Shown: positions 17,280-40,123 of the stretch, piece after piece
Numbering within the stretch: the stretch's first letter is position 1
Layout: every line of letters starts with the position of its first letter
Assembly: GCA_944390195.1 (NCBI GenBank)
Contig: CALXOZ010000007.1
Coordinates: 18,443 to 82,442, forward strand
DNA: 64,000 nucleotides
From: an uncultured Alphaproteobacteria bacterium
GTDB lineage: Bacteria > Pseudomonadota > Alphaproteobacteria > CAAGCB01 > CAG-977
Direction of reading: 5' to 3'
Made by a program: the position numbers and the translations under genes
The notes under the pieces: model-generated
Seen by the model: only the letters and a program-made list of their open reading frames with translations
The model's database searches: none
Told to the model about the DNA's origin: nothing

Positions 17280-17387
17280 TCGTTCTTTGATTTTTGATAT
17301 TTTCCGGATCGTACCGGATATTGAAAGACAATCTGTTCCGGATTTCGCGAAAACAGGGGGCAGTTTTTCTTACTTGGAAATTTTTCT

Positions 17388-17425
17388 GAAAGCAGCTTTG
17401 GCTTTGGAAGGGCTTTCCTGTTTTT
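17388..17425 (+). terminator. Probable intrinsic terminator after gltA.
   Basis: GAAAGC...GCTTTC stem followed by CTGTTTTT, about 110 nt after the gltA stop. The stem is imperfect. Confidence 0.4.
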
Positions 17426-17990
17426 AACGGATAAATAGTGTCGTAATGCCTTCCTGAGAAAGCTCTCCTCCGAAATGCATAAAACAAAGCATCGACGGAT
17501 CATCTGTAAAGGATTGTTGTTTGTTTTATTGTAGGGCATATATTTCAGGAGGGCTGTTTAAATATTTGCGATTTTTGCGTCATTTTTGCAGATAATCACC
17601 GTTACTTTTTGAAAAGGCGGGGAAGGGGAAGCGTTCTGTCAATCTTGATGTCGAAAACAGTAAGGAAATTTATCAGACAGTGTTGATTTTTCCAGTTTGA
17701 AACGATATCAGCAATAAAGCTTTTTTATCAAGAAGTGATGTAAAAGCTTCACTTGATTTTTTCCGTCCAACAACTTGTTAAAATCCTTTACCTTTAAAAA
17801 ATACCTAATACATACCCCGTATGTTTTGGAACAAAATATTGAAAACGGCTTTTGTTAAATGATGCCTTCGTTTGTTAGACATGACCGGAAGGGTGTGGAC
17901 TTTTGTTTGATCGCCTAATGTCTTGATGTCGTTTTTGATTTTTTTGTGTACTGTTATTATATTGCCGGTATGATATTTCAGGAGAAGCCG

Positions 17991-18347
17991 ATGGCGGTAA
18001 ATGAGCAATTGATCGCAAAAAAAATGGCAAAGGCTTTAGCGTTTTTATGTTTGAATGAACATCTTCAAACGCCTTTGCATAACGGGGAACACCCCGTATC
18101 AAAAACAGGTGATTATTCCGATGTTTTCATCACCGATGCCGAAGGGCGTCAAATCGTTTGGTGCCAAGCTTGTCGTGTGTCATGCAAAGAACGCGAGAGA
18201 GTGTTTGATGATGTCGCAAAAGGGATTTATGATTTTTTACTCAACATTGAAACGGATTTTTATACCAGACGGTTGGAACGCGCATATCGTGCTTGCGTCC
18301 ATTGGAAAAAAGAAGGACTTAAAAAAAAGACAAAAAGGAGAATATAG
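17991..18347 (+). CDS. Hypothetical small protein, 118 aa.
   Basis: The track ORF starts at 17946. I prefer the ATG at 17991, preceded by the AGGAGAAG SD (MAVNEQLIAKK...). A candidate promoter TTGTGT-N17-TATTAT lies upstream. Lys-rich C-terminus. No family recognised. Confidence 0.35.
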   Translation: MAVNEQLIAKKMAKALAFLCLNEHLQTPLHNGEHPVSKTGDYSDVFITDAEGRQIVWCQACRVSCKERERVFDDVAKGIYDFLLNIETDFYTRRLERAYRACVHWKKEGLKKKTKRRI

Positions 18348-18423
18348 CTTTTTTTTGTTTCTTTTATAACGGATTCAAGGTAAAACAAAAATAAGTGTTT
18401 TAACCGATGGATCTGATTTTGAT

Positions 18424-19604: not shown

Positions 19605-20906
<1,302 letters not shown>

Positions 20907-20942
20907 TAAAAATCTTTTTATTTAAAGCAAATCATGTAAAAT

Positions 20943-20976
20943 AAGGGAAAGAGCGGAAGCTTTTTCCCTTTTTTCC
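20943..20976 (+). terminator. Intrinsic terminator after purA.
   Basis: AAGGGAAAGAGC-ggaa-GCTTTTTCCCTT stem (one mismatch) followed by TTTTT. Confidence 0.5.
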
Positions 20977-20994
20977 GTACTTCGGAAGGCGAAT

Positions 20995-23043
20995 ATGGCT
21001 GGAAATGATACGTCAACAAATCAAGATCGGTCTTCGGAGTTATTAGCCCCTTTAAAAAATAAAGGGGAAGTGTGCTTTTTAAAAAACAGGTTTCGCATAT
21101 ATCCGGAATTGCCGCTTTTATCATTGGATATGCCTTGTGCAAAGGCGTTTCAAGCCGAAGAAACAAGTGTTTCGGATCGTAAGGTTTTCGCGTTGGTTTG
21201 CCGTCCCGATTTGCCGGTCAGAAAAGATCATATAAAGTCCAGATCCGGTTTGGAAATGGAAGGGATTTTAACTTTGGTTGATGCCGGTATAGCGTTTTGG
21301 GAACCGTTTAAATCCAAAACGATGATTTTGATTTATGAATTGCCTTTGGGCGGGCGTGTCGTGCAGTCTGGGACGTATGATAAGGTTTTACCGGAAGAGG
21401 AAACAGAAAAAATTTCACGCTGGATCCGTCCTTTATTAATGGGGATCAATAATCTGTCCTTGCAGGGGTTGACACATCGGGAAATCCGTCCGGACAATTT
21501 ATTTTATTTGGATGCGGAAAAAACAAAAGTTGTCTGGGGGGATTGCATTTCTTCCCCTGCGGGTTATGACCAGCCATCCTGTTTTGAAACAATTGAATCC
21601 TCGATGTGTTCTGCTGCCGGTAAAGGGAACGGTGTTACGGCAGATGATTTGTATGCTTTCGGGGCGACGCTGGTTTGTTTGGGATTGGGGTATAATCCGG
21701 TCGAACATCTATCCGATGATGAATTGCTGACGTTGAAAATTTATAAAGGATCTTATGCGGCTTTGATCGGAGAAGAACGCATTCCCTTGGCTTTGATCGA
21801 ATTGTTGCGAGGACTTCTGGCGGATAATGTTTCTCAACGCTGGGACATTTCATCAACGCAATTGTGGGCGGACGGAAGACGTTTGACTCCGATCCAATCA
21901 AAATCATTCAATTCGTCTCAACGCCCTTTTTTGTTTAATAATGTCGAATATTTTTCTTATCGTACATTGGCTTATGCTTTTTCTAAAAATTGGGATCTGG
22001 CTTCGGATGCTATCCGTTCCGAAAAATTATTGACTTGGGTTGTTCGGGGGTTCGATGATAAAACAACGGCTGAAGCGATAACGGCATCAATAAATATGGC
22101 ACTGGAACGCTTTTCAATCAAAGAAAAACAAGACGACTTTATCATTGCCAGAACTTGTATGCTTCTGGATTCCAATGCTCCTTTACGCATGCGTGAATGT
22201 TCTTTTATGCCTGATGCTTTGGGAACAATGCTTGCCTTGTATGCTCATGATGAAAAAATGACAAAAACGCTTATCGGTGTCGTGGCGGCCGGATATTTGG
22301 AAAGCTGGTATGAATTTCACCATGATAGAATTTCCGCTCAATATATTAAAAATATGCAAGTTGTTTTGCAAAAACCGGATCTGGGGATGGGGGCGGAAAG
22401 ATTGTTATATGATTTAAATGATAATCTTGCTTGCCAAAGCCCGCTTGTTATTAAAGACTATGTCGATGATATTAAAGATCTGATGCCGGCATTGGAGAAA
22501 ACGGCTAAAACCGTTTCTTATGAAACTTATCCGCTTGACCGGCATATCGCCGCCTTTATTGCCGTTAAATTCGGTTTAAGGTCGGCGGAAGCATTGACTT
22601 TATTAAATTCTCGCAAAGAATATGTTTCAATGCAAGGGATGTTAAATATATTTTCGGCGTTGCAAAGCGCTTTCGGACCCCAAAAACTGTATGCTTTTTG
22701 CGGCTGGATCGGAAAGTGGTTGTCTCCGATTGTTAAAAGCTATCATAGTATTGAAAAACGAATGATATTGGAAAAAAATTTGCCTCAGTTGCTCAAAAAA
22801 GGTAGCCTTCCGGACATTTGCGCCTTTTTGGATGATAAACAAGAGCGTTTGTTGGATACGAATTATTTTGAACAGGCTAAAAAGGAATATGCCAGACTAT
22901 CCGGTGAAATTGAACTCTTGTCAGAAAAGAGCGAAAAAAGAAAAAGTGAAAATATGATCTTAGGCTATCAAATAGCGGCTGTTTTTTGTTTCGGAACGGC
23001 TGTTTTGATGATGTCTTTTTTGCTGTTGTCCGAATTTTTTTAG
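20995..23043 (+). CDS. Atypical protein-kinase-like (PKL) protein, probable pseudokinase, with a long alpha-helical C-terminal region and a C-terminal TM anchor.
   Basis: 682 aa. HREIRPDNLFY resembles the HRDxKPxN catalytic loop with D changed to E. The DFG position, 21 residues downstream, reads WGD. There is no clear Gly-rich loop or VAIK lysine. SPAGYDQP...DDLYAFGATLVCLGLGYNP resembles the APE/activation-segment and helix-F region. The C-terminal hydrophobic stretch is IAAVFCFGTAVLMMSFLLL. Confidence 0.45.
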   Translation: MAGNDTSTNQDRSSELLAPLKNKGEVCFLKNRFRIYPELPLLSLDMPCAKAFQAEETSVSDRKVFALVCRPDLPVRKDHIKSRSGLEMEGILTLVDAGIAFWEPFKSKTMILIYELPLGGRVVQSGTYDKVLPEEETEKISRWIRPLLMGINNLSLQGLTHREIRPDNLFYLDAEKTKVVWGDCISSPAGYDQPSCFETIESSMCSAAGKGNGVTADDLYAFGATLVCLGLGYNPVEHLSDDELLTLKIYKGSYAALIGEERIPLALIELLRGLLADNVSQRWDISSTQLWADGRRLTPIQSKSFNSSQRPFLFNNVEYFSYRTLAYAFSKNWDLASDAIRSEKLLTWVVRGFDDKTTAEAITASINMALERFSIKEKQDDFIIARTCMLLDSNAPLRMRECSFMPDALGTMLALYAHDEKMTKTLIGVVAAGYLESWYEFHHDRISAQYIKNMQVVLQKPDLGMGAERLLYDLNDNLACQSPLVIKDYVDDIKDLMPALEKTAKTVSYETYPLDRHIAAFIAVKFGLRSAEALTLLNSRKEYVSMQGMLNIFSALQSAFGPQKLYAFCGWIGKWLSPIVKSYHSIEKRMILEKNLPQLLKKGSLPDICAFLDDKQERLLDTNYFEQAKKEYARLSGEIELLSEKSEKRKSENMILGYQIAAVFCFGTAVLMMSFLLLSEFF

Positions 23044-23056
23044 GAAAGGGCGAAAA

Positions 23057-23575
23057 ATGGTAAGTGATAAAAAAAAATCAAATGAAATTTTTTTCGCTTC
23101 GGCTCTTTCTTTTTTAATTTTATTCCCGATGCTGTTCTGGATGTTGCCGACTTTTGTTTTTTTCTGTCTTAGTATGTTGCCGACATTTATCGTTCTGATT
23201 ACTGAGATCCATTCAAAAACAAAATTAAAATACAAATGGCTATGTGTCGGCGGACTGAATTTTGCCGGAGCATTGCCTTTTTTGTTTCAATTATGGTTCG
23301 GCAATAATACGTTACAAGAAGCTGTTACGATATTTTTTTGTAACACGGCTTTTGTTATGATTTATTGCTCGGCTTTGGTCGGATGGTTCTTTTATCGTTT
23401 TATTCCTGCAATTGTTTCTGTTTTTTTAGAAATGTCGGATCAACGGCGCCTTGTTTATTTACAAGAGTTACAAACGAAATTAATTGCGAAATGGGGAAAA
23501 GAGGTTAGTTTTGAAGACAACCCTTTCCTGATTGTAAAAGAAAAAATTTCTTCTTCAAAAGACGATTTTTCCTGA
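23057..23575 (+). CDS. Small 4-TM membrane protein, probably co-transcribed with the PKL gene.
   Basis: 172 aa. It begins 14 nt after the upstream stop. Duplicated MLPTF segment (FPMLFWMLPTFVFFCLSMLPTFIVLIT) and four hydrophobic helices. Confidence 0.4.
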   Translation: MVSDKKKSNEIFFASALSFLILFPMLFWMLPTFVFFCLSMLPTFIVLITEIHSKTKLKYKWLCVGGLNFAGALPFLFQLWFGNNTLQEAVTIFFCNTAFVMIYCSALVGWFFYRFIPAIVSVFLEMSDQRRLVYLQELQTKLIAKWGKEVSFEDNPFLIVKEKISSSKDDFS

Positions 23576-37194: not shown

Positions 37195-37212
37195 TATTGC
37201 CACAAATTCCAT

Positions 37213-37244
37213 AAAAACAGAGAGGGGAGCCTCTCTGTTTTTTT
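37213..37244 (+). terminator. Intrinsic terminator after eno.
   Basis: CAGAGAGG-ggag-CCTCTCTG stem followed by a 7-T run, 19 nt after the stop. An A-run precedes it, so it could act bidirectionally. Confidence 0.8.
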
Positions 37245-37845
37245 ATGGGGAAGATATGGTCTTTCCTTGTTTTGCAAAAACAGACAAGTGATCCTTGCTT
37301 GTTGAAGATAAATAAAATGTCGTAACAGACGAAGCCTGAAAACGGAAAGCGGATTATTTATAAGGCAAAAAAATACTTGGAAAAATCTTTTTATTTGAAG
37401 TTATTTAAAATCATATTTTATGGATCGTTAAATGCGAATAGAATTCAATTTGTTAAATATTATAAGTTTGAAATTTATGGATACGAGAATTGTTGTTTAT
37501 CTTATGAATTTATAGAAGCCTGTTATTTTTGTTTTGAAATTTTTTATGGTAAGAGGCTTTTATAAATGTTCTAAAAAATCCGGAATTGAAGTGGGACGAA
37601 GAAAGGCGGCTTATTTTGAAATGTTTCTCTTGTTTGCTCCTGTTACTTAAGTTTTGATGCAGTGATCTTATTTGAAAATTAAAGGTTTTTCAAAAACTTT
37701 CTGGTTGCCCTTTTTCCTCCGACGGAAATTCTTGCCGGATTGGAACAAAGAGGTGTCTTTGTGTTTTTTGTAGAATATCATCAATTTTTTATGATTGGAA
37801 AAATGATTAAAAGGCGGGGCGATAATTTAAAAGCGCTCCGGAAAC

Positions 37846-37870
37846 GGGTGGAGAGGGGGAGGGAGAGGGG
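37846..37870 (+). repeat. G-rich tract matching a canonical G-quadruplex motif (GGG-N6-GGGGG-N1-GGG-N3-GGGG).
   Basis: GGGTGGAGAGGGGGAGGGAGAGGGG is conspicuous within a roughly 900-bp AT-rich non-coding region. Confidence 0.5.
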
Positions 37871-38097
37871 AGTTTGGAAAGGCCGTCCGTTATCATATTA
37901 CAACTGAGAATTGGAATGGAGTGTGTTATAGGCTTATTATGGAAAAGTTTTAAAAGAAAATGAAATATTCGGAGAAAAACGTCAAAATCATTTAAAAATC
38001 TTTTTGTTTTTTCCGGTTGATATTAGTCTTATGGCATATGTTGCAGTTCTTTTGAACTGTTTTGAAAAGCAATGGGTGTTACACAGTCTGTTTGGCA

Positions 38098-38124
38098 TGA
38101 AAAATCCCGCATTTTATGCGGGAT
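38098..38124 (-). terminator. Intrinsic terminator of the 38150-38602 lipoprotein gene.
   Basis: Minus-strand ATCCCGCAT-aaa-ATGCGGGAT stem followed by TTTTTC, 26 nt after the stop. Confidence 0.65.
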
Positions 38125-38149
38125 CTCTTTTCGGTAATTGAATGAAAAT

Positions 38150-38602
38150 CTATTCTTCGCTGAAAATACGATAAGCCTCTGCCGGATCGTCAGTGTCCTG
38201 TACTTTCAAGTCCATCGGGCAAAGTCCAGTTTTCGTCCGGTTGAGTATATTATCCAATACTTGGTCGGCGCTGTATTTTATACCATATTTTTCATAGATT
38301 TTAATTGCCGGCTTAGATATGACCGGTGTGTAAACTTCTTTGACTTGTCCGTAGACGTGTAATAACGCTGATGCTTTTCCAACAATGCGGTCTGCGACAA
38401 AAGCGTCTTTGAACGTGCCGTCATTCAAACGGATTAATAAAGGATCAAGGCCTCTTTCATCATAAAATGTTGTTTTTCCGTCTTTATATACGATAAGGGT
38501 ATGTTCCTTTAACTGATTACGAAGGAAATCCGTGTCAGGACGTTTTGACATTGAACAAGCTATTAATAAAATAGTCATCAAGCCGATAAAAAAAGATTTC
38601 AT
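38150..38602 (-). CDS. Hypothetical lipoprotein.
   Basis: 150 aa. Signal peptide plus lipobox LIACS. No family recognised. It has its own terminator and is flanked by long non-coding DNA. Confidence 0.5.
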   Translation of the reverse strand: MKSFFIGLMTILLIACSMSKRPDTDFLRNQLKEHTLIVYKDGKTTFYDERGLDPLLIRLNDGTFKDAFVADRIVGKASALLHVYGQVKEVYTPVISKPAIKIYEKYGIKYSADQVLDNILNRTKTGLCPMDLKVQDTDDPAEAYRIFSEE

Positions 38603-39090
38603 AATATCAACTCCATAAAAAAGGACATTAGAGAATACAAACCTAAAAAAGTTTTAAGTCAATACAAAAAAGTACATATTTTAAAGGTTTTTTTTACTGT
38701 TGAAAATCTGTTTTACGGATTTATGTAACAGAATAAAGAAAAAGCTATTTTAATCATTGTATGACAATAATGTAGAGACTGATTGATTTGCCATAAAGCG
38801 AAGGGGAAACATAATCTGAAAGAAGGGAAAAAGAAGTCTGTTTATGAAAGATTTCTTCGCCTATTTCCAGTTTTTAAGGTTAATAAAGGTATAAAATGAG
38901 TATAAAGAAGCTAGTTATAAATTTTAATTTTTTATAATATTGTCATCTTTAGCCTTAAAAAATCAATTTGATATAAAGCACTTTGTGGATTTCCATTCAT
39001 TTTTAAAAATCAGGAATGCATTGAAAATATTATTGAATTTTTGTGTGGGCAATGTCATTCAGTTAAAAAAATCTGTCATACGAAAAACGG

Positions 39091-39275
39091 TTTTTCATAT
39101 ATTTATTGGTCTGTATTTTTTGTTGCCGGTTTTATGGTAAAAATTGAACGCCTATGATAGGCATGACAACACGATCGTCTTTAAGCTGATTTAATTGTAG
39201 GAAATTGTTCTGTCATGTATTGGTGAATGTTAAAAATATAAAATAATACAGGATCATCTTTAAAGATGCTTTTTT
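39091..39275 (+). repeat. Copy 1 of a dispersed composite non-coding element, ending in palindrome plus T-run. Candidate sRNA or MITE-like repeat.
   Basis: Three blocks are nearly identical to the reverse complement of 49554-49681. Block A (39091-39134) is TTTTTCATATATTTATTGGTCTGTATTTTTTGTTGCCGGTTTTA. Block B (39215-39237) is ATGTATTGGTGAATGTTAAAAAT. Block C (39252-39275) is GATCATCTTTAAAGATGCTTTTTT. Copy 1 carries an extra 80-bp insert between blocks A and B. Confidence 0.6.
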
Positions 39276-39892
39276 AACAAAATATCCCAAGCTCAAAGCG
39301 AGAGACGCTTTTTATTTCCGTTCAGTCTGGCGGAGTGGCAACCTCTTTGGAGTTTGAACCGCAGGCACGATTTAAAAGACGCTTTCTTAACAAGTGTCTC
39401 CAACACAAGTTTACATCCATACTTTTCTTACATATATGGATATCACCGTATTTTTCTGTAAATCCCCCGTACTCCCATAAACCGGAAATTACCTTATTTA
39501 TCCGACTTTTCATTCCTCATTTTTCCCAAAAACGATCGAACAGAACGCGTTTAATAAATCACAACCGCTTAAAAAAGATGTGCTCGCCGCCTCACTGGGC
39601 TAAACAACCTCTCCATAAACATCAAAAAAACAAAATATACAAAATACTTTATCCCATTAATCTCAGAGAATATTTTCTCTCGATCATTCAATAAACAGGA
39701 ATATACCTAACCACTAAAACACTTCACACTCTTTCACAGGCAATACAAAAAAATGTTTTCTATTCTTTTTTATAAAAAACATCTCATCTCTGTTCATTCC
39801 TACTAAAAAAACATACCTAAGCTCATTCCTAAAAAATAAGGGCGAATCCTGTGAAACTTTTTTATTCTATAAAACCGCAGAATTGTTTTTCA

Positions 39893-39925
39893 CAAAAAAA
39901 ATCCTCCAAGACAGGAGGATTTTTC
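39893..39925 (-). terminator. Intrinsic (bidirectional) terminator, about 200 nt downstream of the pmm-like gene.
   Basis: AAAAAAATCCTCC-aagaca-GGAGGATTTTT. The 7-8 bp GC-containing stem has an A-run on one side and a T-run on the other. Confidence 0.55.
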
Positions 39926-40077
39926 GTTTTACGGATATAAAAAAACATTTAAGCCTTTTGAAATGATGAGTTATAGCCCACTTCTTTTATTGTTTCAAAA
40001 GATAAATATCTTTGCCAGTACTTTAAAAGACATATATCAAATGTAAATCTTTTAAATTTATTCTAGAATAAAGACAA

Positions 40078-40123
40078 AATATGGCAAAAATATGGTTTGA
40101 ATTATGGCGAATTATGGCAAGGA
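40078..40123. repeat. Iteron-like direct repeats (A/T)TATGGC(A/G)A, four copies at about 10-14 bp spacing.
   Basis: aaatATGGCAAAaatATGGtttgaaTTATGGCGAaTTATGGCAAgg, immediately 3' of the pmm stop (40132). Confidence 0.4.

What the first reader, a model, noticed from the sequence alone, without database searches (positions are those of the whole stretch)
20995..23575. Atypical protein-kinase-like (probable pseudokinase) protein with a C-terminal membrane anchor, plus a co-transcribed 4-TM partner
The 682-aa product has a eukaryotic-like kinase core with degraded catalytic residues. HRE replaces HRD, and WGD sits where DFG is expected, exactly 21 residues after the His. There is no obvious Gly-rich loop or VAIK Lys. 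An APE-like segment and an F-helix-like segment (DDLYAFGATLVCLGLGYNP) are retained. The core is followed by about 350 aa of helical sequence and a terminal TM helix. A 172-aa 4-TM protein starts 14 nt downstream and carries a duplicated MLPTF segment. The pair looks like a membrane-tethered pseudokinase scaffold or signalling module of unknown function.
Basis: partly seen in the sequence, partly recalled or inferred. Interest (0 to 1): 0.5.

Follow-up and report, generated by a model that had tools for sequence, protein, structure and literature searches.

The report
Membrane-anchored dead kinase with small partner
This is a real, strongly conserved gene pair of Rhodospirillales-type Alphaproteobacteria: a protein with a kinase fold that lacks all three catalytic residues, is joined to a helical domain unlike any solved structure and tethered to the membrane by its last helix, and sits next to a small four-helix membrane protein; nobody has studied what the pair does.

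Summary

The 172-aa, roughly 4-TM partner starts 13 nt after the stop codon. It lies directly downstream in 82 of 85 loci, within a conserved hisZ-purA-[pair]-rluD/rpoH arrangement.

The family has about 1,175 50%-identity clusters, all named members are Rhodospirillales, and it is not among the seven named bacterial pseudokinase families.

Best reading: a non-catalytic, membrane-tethered scaffold or switch complex. Its cellular role is unknown.

The parts
20943..20970 (+). Terminator-like hairpin (12-bp stem followed by a T-run) after the purA stop codon (20904-20906). It ends about 14 nt upstream of the RBS and about 25 nt upstream of the ATG.
   Evidence: Terminator scan. The same hairpin plus T-run is kept in gut-clade relatives with different stem sequences, i.e. 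compensatory changes.
20984..20989 (+). RBS-like GGAAGG, 5 nt before the ATG of the pseudokinase gene.
   Evidence: Sequence read directly.
20995..23043 (+). Gene for the 682-aa tail-anchored pseudokinase.
   Evidence: ORF. 229 full-length homologues. AlphaFold model with pLDDT 90.2 and pTM 0.83.
21073..21879 (+). Protein-kinase-like domain (aa ~27-295).
21199..21201 (+). Cys69 codon at the beta3 'VAIK' lysine position.
   Evidence: Cys in 264 of 325 members, never Lys.
21475..21498 (+). Catalytic-loop remnant H161-R-E-I-R-P-D-N168. The HRD Asp is replaced, and the loop Lys is replaced by an invariant Arg.
   Evidence: Residue 163 is A/S/E/N/G/Q, with Asp in 1 of 325. R162, R165 and N168 are nearly invariant.
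21532..21546 (+). DFG remnant V180-W181-G182-D183-C184.
   Evidence: No Asp at residue 180 or 181 in 325 members. G182 is present in 323 of 325, residue 183 is D or E in 314 of 325, and C184 is present in 278 of 325.
21880..22830 (+). Conserved all-helical domain (aa ~296-612) with no solved structural counterpart.
22384..22545 (+). Most invariant segment of the protein (aa 464-517): G464-x-G466-x-E468-R469-x-x-Y472 ... C480-x-S482 ... D515-x-H517.
   Evidence: Y472 and D515 are present in 325 of 325 members, C480 in 324, S482 in 323.
22831..22944 (+). Juxtamembrane amphipathic stalk helix (aa ~613-650) with heptad positions F625, A628, Y632, L635, I639, L642 and invariant D621.
   Evidence: Model secondary structure. 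Family hydrophobicity profile.
22951..23040 (+). C-terminal transmembrane tail anchor (aa ~653-682). At most a few residues follow the hydrophobic stretch.
   Evidence: Kyte-Doolittle score 2.44 over 653-682. Helix 646-681 in the model. A hydrophobic C-terminus is present in all aligned members.
23043..23050 (+). RBS-like GGAAAGGG for the partner gene, overlapping the last base of the upstream stop codon.
   Evidence: Sequence read directly.
23057..23575 (+). Gene for the 172-aa polytopic (~4-TM) partner. It has a conserved GGLNFAGxLPxLxxLW segment and a cytoplasmic amphipathic C-terminal helix ending in WGxEV.
   Evidence: ORF. 36 homologues with the single sequence and 275 with the profile. 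Alignment A3. Hydropathy. Directly downstream of the pseudokinase gene in 82 of 85 loci.

Best explanation
The two genes encode the subunits of a conserved inner-membrane complex of Rhodospirillales-type Alphaproteobacteria.

The large subunit lies entirely in the cytoplasm and is tethered by a C-terminal tail-anchor helix. Its N-terminal domain is a structurally intact protein-kinase fold that has lost the Gly-rich loop and all three catalytic residues (Lys, Asp, Asp). It therefore does not transfer phosphate. It acts instead as a binding or conformational-switch module, probably held in a fixed 'active-like' shape. It may recognise an anionic or phosphorylated ligand through the retained basic and polar catalytic-loop residues R76, R162, R165, N168 and D/E183.

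This domain is packed against a family-specific helical domain that carries an invariant polar site. A heptad stalk next to the membrane lets the protein pair with itself or with the conserved cytoplasmic C-terminal helix of the ~4-TM partner. The partner is the membrane-embedded half of the complex.

Shown: the fold, the loss of catalytic residues across the family, the domain architecture, the tail anchor, the conserved adjacency, and vertical inheritance at a fixed chromosomal site.

Inferred: physical complex formation, absence of any catalysis, ligand binding, and the scaffold or switch role. The cellular process served is not known.
For: - Catalytic residues absent family-wide: 0 of 325 Lys at the beta3 site, 1 of 325 Asp at the HRD site, 0 of 325 Asp at either possible DFG position. 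The Gly-rich loop is replaced by a conserved Pro/Ala segment.
- Structural C-lobe residues are kept: H161, R162, E198, D218, R282, W283. This argues for a folded, selected domain rather than decay.
- The architecture is fixed: among the 150 best of 1,175 representatives, almost all are ~660-740 aa with the C-domain at ~290-680.
- The tail anchor is conserved.
- The partner lies directly downstream in 82 of 85 loci, often with 4-nt overlaps, and has the same taxonomic range.
- Both proteins have conserved amphipathic, heptad-like helices next to the membrane.
- The chromosomal context hisZ-purA-[pair]-rluD/rpoH is the same from gut MAGs to Terasakiella, Magnetospirillum and Azospirillum. There are no phage matches, and hits to defence models are only weak, generic kinase-domain hits. 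This points to a housekeeping role.
- Precedent: membrane pseudokinases acting as scaffolds, namely EssB/YukC and the MviN pseudokinase domain (review PMC12599244).
Against: - There is no direct evidence that the two proteins bind each other. No complex model could be run.
- The near-invariance of R165, N168 and D/E183 is unusual for a fully dead cleft. It could mean nucleotide binding or a non-canonical reaction.
- The strongest conservation is in the C-terminal domain (Y472, C480, S482, D515, H517, D621). This resembles an active or metal-binding site more than a scaffold surface.
- The tail-anchor helix itself is poorly conserved (mean column identity 0.385). A specific helix-helix contact with the partner inside the membrane is therefore not supported.
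- Three loci lack an adjacent partner gene.
- No phenotype or expression data were found.
Confidence: 0.55

Rival explanations
1. The C-terminal helical domain is the working part: a new enzyme or a metal- or ligand-binding module built around the invariant E468/R469/Y472/C480/S482/D515/H517 site (for example a Cys-His-Asp-type centre or a metal site). The dead kinase domain serves as its regulator or substrate-recruiting arm, and the partner holds the assembly at the membrane.
For: The most invariant polar residues of the protein lie in a contiguous 55-residue helix-loop-helix-loop-helix stretch of this domain: Y472 and D515 in 325 of 325 members, C480 in 324, S482 in 323, H517 in 319 (secondary structure). 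The domain is never found without the kinase-like domain, apart from the shorter representatives listed. Its fold has no solved counterpart, so a function cannot be excluded by analogy.
Against: No similarity to any known enzyme or metal-binding fold or family. Invariant residues can also be structural or form a protein-protein interface.
Confidence: 0.2
2. The kinase-like domain still binds a nucleotide in an unusual way and catalyses a non-canonical reaction, as SelO does with AMPylation and SidJ with glutamylation. Alternatively it transfers phosphate using relocated residues, as WNK kinases do with a relocated lysine.
Against: No compensating lysine is conserved in beta2: residue 50 is Lys in only 95 of 325 members. 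There is no Gly-rich loop. There is no acidic residue at the HRD or DFG-Asp positions in essentially any member. No alternative acidic or basic pair is evident in the N-lobe apart from R76.
Confidence: 0.12
3. The pair is an accessory, horizontally moving module such as an anti-phage defence or toxin system that uses a kinase-like sensor.
For: Weak hits of the kinase-like region to the defence-kinase models mad6, PD-T4-6, MkoA and PglW (E 1.5e-5 to 0.03).
Against: These hits cover only the generic kinase core and are far below any family threshold. The pair sits at the same chromosomal site between housekeeping genes across 31-100% identity. No copy was found in phage genomes. The only 'plasmid' copies are on ~1-Mb Azospirillum chromids with the same housekeeping neighbours.
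Confidence: 0.02

Closest known systems
EssB/YukC, the membrane pseudokinase of the Firmicute type VIIb secretion system
   Same: A bacterial kinase-fold domain with all three catalytic motifs degraded and no Gly-rich loop. It is attached to the membrane by a single helix and acts as a non-catalytic, dimerising scaffold together with other membrane proteins (PMC12599244, read).
GLW pseudokinase family of the Kannan-lab atlas of bacterial Ser/Thr kinases
   Same: Proteobacterial. All members lack the Lys, Asp and Asp residues. [quoted passage not shown]
   Different: In GLW, a Gly-Leu-Trp motif replaces HRD and a poly-Leu/Trp motif replaces VAIK. This family keeps His-Arg (H-R-[ASE]-I-R-P-x-N) and has A-L-V-Cys at beta3. 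No GLW sequence was available for direct comparison.
Pseudokinase domain of MviN (ActPs3 family) in Mycobacterium
   Same: A catalytically dead Hanks-type domain physically tied to a polytopic membrane protein, used as a regulatory docking module on the cytoplasmic face (PMC12599244).
   Different: In MviN the domain is fused to a 14-TM flippase, lacks most of the activation loop, and is actinobacterial. Here the polytopic protein is a separate ~4-TM subunit, and the catalytic-loop His, Arg and Asn are retained.
WNK kinases (best structural match)
   Different: WNKs are active eukaryotic kinases with a relocated catalytic Lys in beta2 and intact HRD and DFG aspartates. This family has neither.

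Membership tests
Hanks-type (eukaryotic-like) protein kinase fold, Pfam PF00069 | Bilobal kinase fold | tested here: met
Hanks-type (eukaryotic-like) protein kinase fold, Pfam PF00069 | Score above Pfam's gathering threshold | tested here: not met
   23.7 bits against a cut-off of 31.7 for this protein. Many relatives do carry a precomputed PF00069 hit.
Hanks-type (eukaryotic-like) protein kinase fold, Pfam PF00069 | Catalytic triad VAIK-Lys, HRD-Asp and DFG-Asp, plus a Gly-rich loop | tested here: not met
   The residues here are Cys69, Glu163 and Val180/Trp181. In the family there is 0 of 325 Lys, 1 of 325 Asp and 0 of 325 Asp. There is no GxGxxG motif.
Hanks-type (eukaryotic-like) protein kinase fold, Pfam PF00069 | C-lobe scaffold residues (HRD His and Arg, catalytic-loop Asn, APE Glu, F-helix Asp, alphaH-alphaI Arg) | tested here: met
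   H161, R162, N168, E198, D218 and R282 are invariant or nearly so.
Pseudokinase (sequence definition: lacks at least one of the three catalytic residues) | Absence of the Lys, Asp or Asp residues | tested here: met
   All three are absent in this protein and across the family.
Pseudokinase (functional definition) | No phosphotransfer or nucleotide binding | not testable with these tools
   Needs biochemistry (thermal shift, ITC, radiolabel assay).
GLW bacterial pseudokinase family | A GLW motif in place of HRD, and a poly-Leu/Trp motif in place of VAIK | tested here: not met
   The catalytic loop is T-H-R-[ASE]-I-R-P-D-N and beta3 is F-A-L-V-C. This was compared with the published description only.
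GLW bacterial pseudokinase family | [quoted passage not shown] | tested here: met
   Alphaproteobacteria; TM helix at 653-682.
EssB/YukC (T7SSb) | Extracellular domain after the TM helix, and neighbouring T7SS genes | tested here: not met
   The protein ends with the hydrophobic tail-anchor helix. The neighbours are hisZ, purA, rluD and rpoH.
WNK-like active kinases with a relocated lysine | Conserved compensating Lys in beta2, with intact HRD and DFG aspartates | tested here: not met
   Residue 50 is Lys in 95 of 325 members. The aspartates are absent.
Class IV lanthionine synthetase LanL (best NCBIfam hit) | Full-length match above the cut-off, and a LanC-type cyclase domain | tested here: not met
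Defence-system kinases (PglW, MAD6, PD-T4-6) | Family-level HMM match and a defence-island context | tested here: not met
   Only weak kinase-core hits. The context is conserved and housekeeping. There are no phage copies.

The most novel reading that the evidence does not exclude
The pair is a previously unrecognised, order-wide membrane machine of Rhodospirillales. A dead kinase domain senses a cytoplasmic (possibly phosphorylated or anionic) signal and controls a new-fold C-terminal domain that has its own catalytic or metal-binding Cys/His/Asp-type site. The small polytopic partner acts as the membrane effector or substrate channel. That would be both a new enzyme or sensor fold and a new pseudokinase-regulated membrane process.
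Probability: 0.2. Interest if true: 0.75.

Novelty: new variant of a known kind. Interest (0 to 1): 0.55.

Why it matters
Bacterial pseudokinases are barely studied. The 2025 atlas and review name seven families, almost all of unknown function. This family is not one of them, probably because it scores below Pfam's kinase threshold.

Several features make it attractive:
- It is large (about 1,175 clusters at 50% identity).
- It is restricted to one major alphaproteobacterial lineage that includes gut and rumen bacteria, Magnetospirillum and Azospirillum.
- It is inherited at a fixed chromosomal position.
- It combines a structurally intact but catalytically stripped kinase fold with a domain that has no solved counterpart and with an almost always adjacent membrane partner.

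Genetically tractable hosts such as Azospirillum and Magnetospirillum carry it, so its function can be tested directly. A result would add a new example of how dead kinases are used at bacterial membranes and would define a new protein fold.

It would also correct two database errors. The large protein is often named 'serine/threonine protein kinase'. The partner is named 'acyl-CoA synthetase'.

Tried and rejected
- Family libraries. Pfam, NCBIfam and PADLOC scans of both proteins gave only sub-threshold, generic kinase-core hits for the large protein. For the partner the only hit was a non-significant DUF1189 match (E 0.046).
- Defence or mobile-element reading. Rejected on synteny and on the absence of phage copies.
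- LanL relationship. Rejected.
- WNK-style relocated lysine. Rejected.
- Cys69-Cys184 pair in the former ATP cleft as a redox or metal site. Losses of the two cysteines co-occur more than expected (17 observed; Fisher p = 0.002). The sequences are phylogenetically related and 74 members lack only one of the two, so this remains an idea, not a finding.
- Promoter for the pair. The consensus scan found none between the purA terminator and the ATG, so the transcription start is unresolved.
- Literature. Searches on pseudokinases in Alphaproteobacteria and Rhodospirillales, on Azospirillum kinases, and of the RB-TnSeq preprint found no characterisation.
- RNA genes. tRNA and Rfam scans of the window found nothing.
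Full report
**Observation.** The two ORFs exist exactly as described: 20995..23043 + (682 aa) and 23057..23575 + (172 aa). A 13-nt spacer with an RBS-like GGAAAGGG separates them. HRE is at residues 161-163, WGD at 181-183, and the F-helix-like DDLYAFGATLVCLGLGYNP at 217-235. MLPTF occurs twice in the small protein, at residues 29 and 40. A Kyte-Doolittle scan finds a single strongly hydrophobic stretch in the large protein, at its very end (653-682). In the small protein it finds hydrophobic stretches at 12-50, 62-81 and 89-124, which means about four membrane helices. The upstream genes on the same strand are gltA, hisZ and purA. Downstream on the other strand are a lipoprotein-like ORF, trkH and an aminopeptidase P gene.

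**Kinase fold with all catalytic residues missing.**
- By sequence the similarity to kinases is real but weak. Pfam Pkinase gives E 3.6e-5 and 23.7 bits, below the 31.7-bit gathering score. The best NCBIfam hit is the kinase core of LanL at 28.8 bits against a cut-off of 650. phmmer against the PDB finds MELK at 3e-5, aligning HRE to HRD, RPDN to KPEN, W-G to F-G, and the DDLYAFG segment to the F-helix.
- I aligned 325 distinct family members to a family HMM. The beta3 lysine site is Cys in 264 and never Lys. The HRD-Asp site is A/S/E/N/G/Q, with Asp once. Neither candidate DFG-Asp position is ever Asp.
- The Gly-rich loop is replaced by a conserved Pro/Ala-rich turn.
- The residues that hold a kinase C-lobe together are invariant or nearly so: H161, R162, N168, E198 (APE), D218 (F-helix) and R282-W283. 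The catalytic-loop Lys is replaced by an invariant Arg (R165).
- This is therefore a folded, selected, triple-degraded pseudokinase family, not a decaying gene.

**C-terminal half.**
- Residues ~296-612 are all-helical in the model, apart from one short beta-hairpin at ~312-319. A long helix (615-644) and the terminal TM helix (646-681) follow.
- Pfam and a PDB profile search also found nothing meaningful.
- An exhaustive phmmer search of 1.84 billion cluster representatives with this half alone found 1,175 proteins at E <= 1e-3 and 944 at E <= 1e-10. Among the best 150, nearly all are 660-740 aa with the domain at ~290-680. The listed matches therefore all show this one architecture; the shorter ones (e.g. 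192-572 aa) are presumably fragments.
- The most invariant polar residues of the whole protein are in this domain: G464, G466, E468, R469, Y472 (325/325), C480 (324/325), S482, D515 (325/325), H517, Q557 and D621 (325/325).
- The stalk helix has a conserved heptad pattern: F625, A628, Y632, L635, I639, L642.

**Partner and gene neighbourhood.**
- The 172-aa protein has 36 homologues by single-sequence search and 275 by profile search. All listed ones are 134-212 aa, none carries a Pfam domain, and they come from the same taxa.
- Conserved features are L41-P42-T43, a G-G-L-N-F-A-G-x-L-P-x-L-x-x-L-W segment, G109-W110, P117, and a cytoplasmic amphipathic C-terminal helix ending in W146-G147-x-E-V.
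- A scan of one genome per species found 345 species with the pseudokinase. I examined 85 loci, including the window. The partner gene lies directly downstream in 82, often overlapping by 4 nt. purA is directly upstream in 70, hisZ is present in 54, and a convergent rluD and/or rpoH follows in many.
- Individual contigs at 32-36% identity show the same pair and largely the same flanking genes: an unnamed complete genome, Tistlia, Terasakiella, and one further metagenome-assembled contig. So does the annotated Azospirillum thermophilum chromid.
- There are three exceptions. One has an integrase inserted right after the pseudokinase gene. Two have unrelated convergent genes there.

**Distribution.** The nearest relatives of the window protein (59-81% identity) come from metagenomes and MAGs, several of them human-gut and rumen 'Alphaproteobacteria/Rhodospirillaceae' bins. 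More distant members are in Magnetospirillum, Phaeospirillum, Roseospira, Terasakiella, Magnetovibrio, Tistlia and Azospirillum. Every named member I saw belongs to the Rhodospirillales, apart from a few bins labelled with other phyla (Marinimicrobia, Bacteroidota), which I take to be mis-binned or mislabelled. No phage genome carries the C-domain. The only 'plasmid' copies are on ~1-Mb Azospirillum chromids with the same housekeeping neighbours.

**Transcription signals.** A 12-bp GC-rich hairpin followed by a T-run lies at 20943-20970, between the purA stop codon and the pseudokinase ATG. In the gut-clade relatives the hairpin is kept while its stem sequence changes in a compensatory way, so it is very likely the purA terminator. 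Only about 25 nt remain before the ATG, and no sigma-70-like promoter was found there. How the pair is transcribed in this organism is therefore open: by read-through, or from a promoter upstream of or overlapping the terminator. In Terasakiella there are about 130 nt between the terminator and the gene. Nothing resembling a strong terminator lies between the two genes of the pair. Co-transcription is thus likely but remains inferred.

**Mechanism.**
- My best reading (confidence 0.55) is a heteromeric inner-membrane complex. The tail-anchored protein is the cytoplasmic scaffold or switch, and the ~4-TM protein is the membrane-embedded subunit.
- The dead kinase domain would act by binding, not by catalysis, as in EssB/YukC or the MviN pseudokinase domain (PMC12599244).
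- The invariant R76, R162, R165, N168 and D/E183 could form a pocket for an anionic ligand. Alternatively they could lock the short, conserved activation segment (P188, D192, Q193, P194) in one conformation. That step is inference.
- The heptad stalk and the partner's amphipathic C-terminal helix are candidate contact elements. The poorly conserved TM anchor is probably only a tether.
- Two rivals remain open. (a) The C-terminal domain may itself be a new enzyme or metal- or ligand-binding module (0.2). (b) The kinase-like cleft may carry out a non-canonical reaction (0.12). Rival (a) is compatible with part of the main reading.
- A defence or mobile-module reading is essentially excluded (0.02).

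**Comparison with what is known.** The Kannan-lab atlas (bioRxiv 10.1101/2025.01.12.632604) and review (PMC12599244) define seven bacterial pseudokinase families: ActPs1-3, GLW, CP1, DYD and DLHK. The closest by description is GLW, which is proteobacterial, lacks all three residues and has a C-terminal TM. GLW, however, is defined by Gly-Leu-Trp in place of HRD and poly-Leu/Trp in place of VAIK. This family keeps His-Arg and has Cys at beta3, so it fails GLW's defining features. It works most like EssB/YukC but is not a member of that family: it has no extracellular domain, no T7SS context, and is far less reduced. I found no paper that characterises either protein.

**Verdict.** The work adds family-wide proof of pseudokinase status, a C-terminal domain with no solved counterpart and an invariant polar site, an almost always adjacent partner gene, lineage-wide synteny, and the family's absence from the current pseudokinase classification. 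Novelty: a new variant (a new family with a new architecture) of a known kind, bacterial membrane pseudokinases. Interest is 0.55: it is a well-defined, testable unknown in tractable organisms, with no known function and no link yet to a major open question.

Noticed in passing
window 23057-23575 and homologues P0136, P0150, P0151, P0305, P0322, P0347: NCBI/RefSeq names many copies of the ~170-aa membrane partner 'acyl-CoA synthetase'. This cannot be right for a small polytopic membrane protein with no matching domain, and looks like a propagated mis-annotation.
   Followed up: partly
window 20907-20942: Between the purA stop codon and the terminator hairpin, the gut-clade relatives share a nearly identical AT-rich stretch (…CTTTTTATTTGAT..AAATCATGTAAAATA…) ending in a -10-like TAAAAT just before the hairpin. 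It could be a promoter firing into the hairpin, a regulatory site, or simply a conserved 3' UTR.
   Followed up: no
L032 8352-9647: In one Rhodospirillaceae MAG a tyrosine-integrase-like gene sits directly after the pseudokinase gene where the partner gene normally is. This suggests an insertion that displaced or removed the partner.
   Followed up: no
L088 (Azospirillum thermophilum NZ_CP029356.1, 598914-614035): In Azospirillum the whole housekeeping block hisZ-purA-pseudokinase-partner-rpoH lies on a ~0.9-1.5-Mb replicon listed as a plasmid (a chromid), not on the main chromosome.
   Followed up: partly
window 37200-40100: Low-GC stretch (0.33-0.40, against ~0.43 elsewhere) with a change in GC-skew sign. 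It has only one ORF of 150 aa or more (a lipoprotein-like 150-aa ORF at 38150-38602) and lies between eno and phosphomannomutase/phosphoglucomutase-type genes.
   Followed up: no
window 17280-18423: About 1.1 kb between gltA and hisZ has only short overlapping ORFs, the longest being 133 aa at 17946-18347. No tRNA or Rfam match was found anywhere in the window.
   Followed up: no
window protein residues 69 and 184 (nt 21199-21201 and 21544-21546): Two conserved cysteines line the former ATP cleft: C69 at the beta3-Lys site and C184 just after the DFG remnant. Their losses co-occur more often than expected (17 double losses; Fisher p = 0.002, not corrected for phylogeny). This hints at a possible redox or metal site.
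   Followed up: partly
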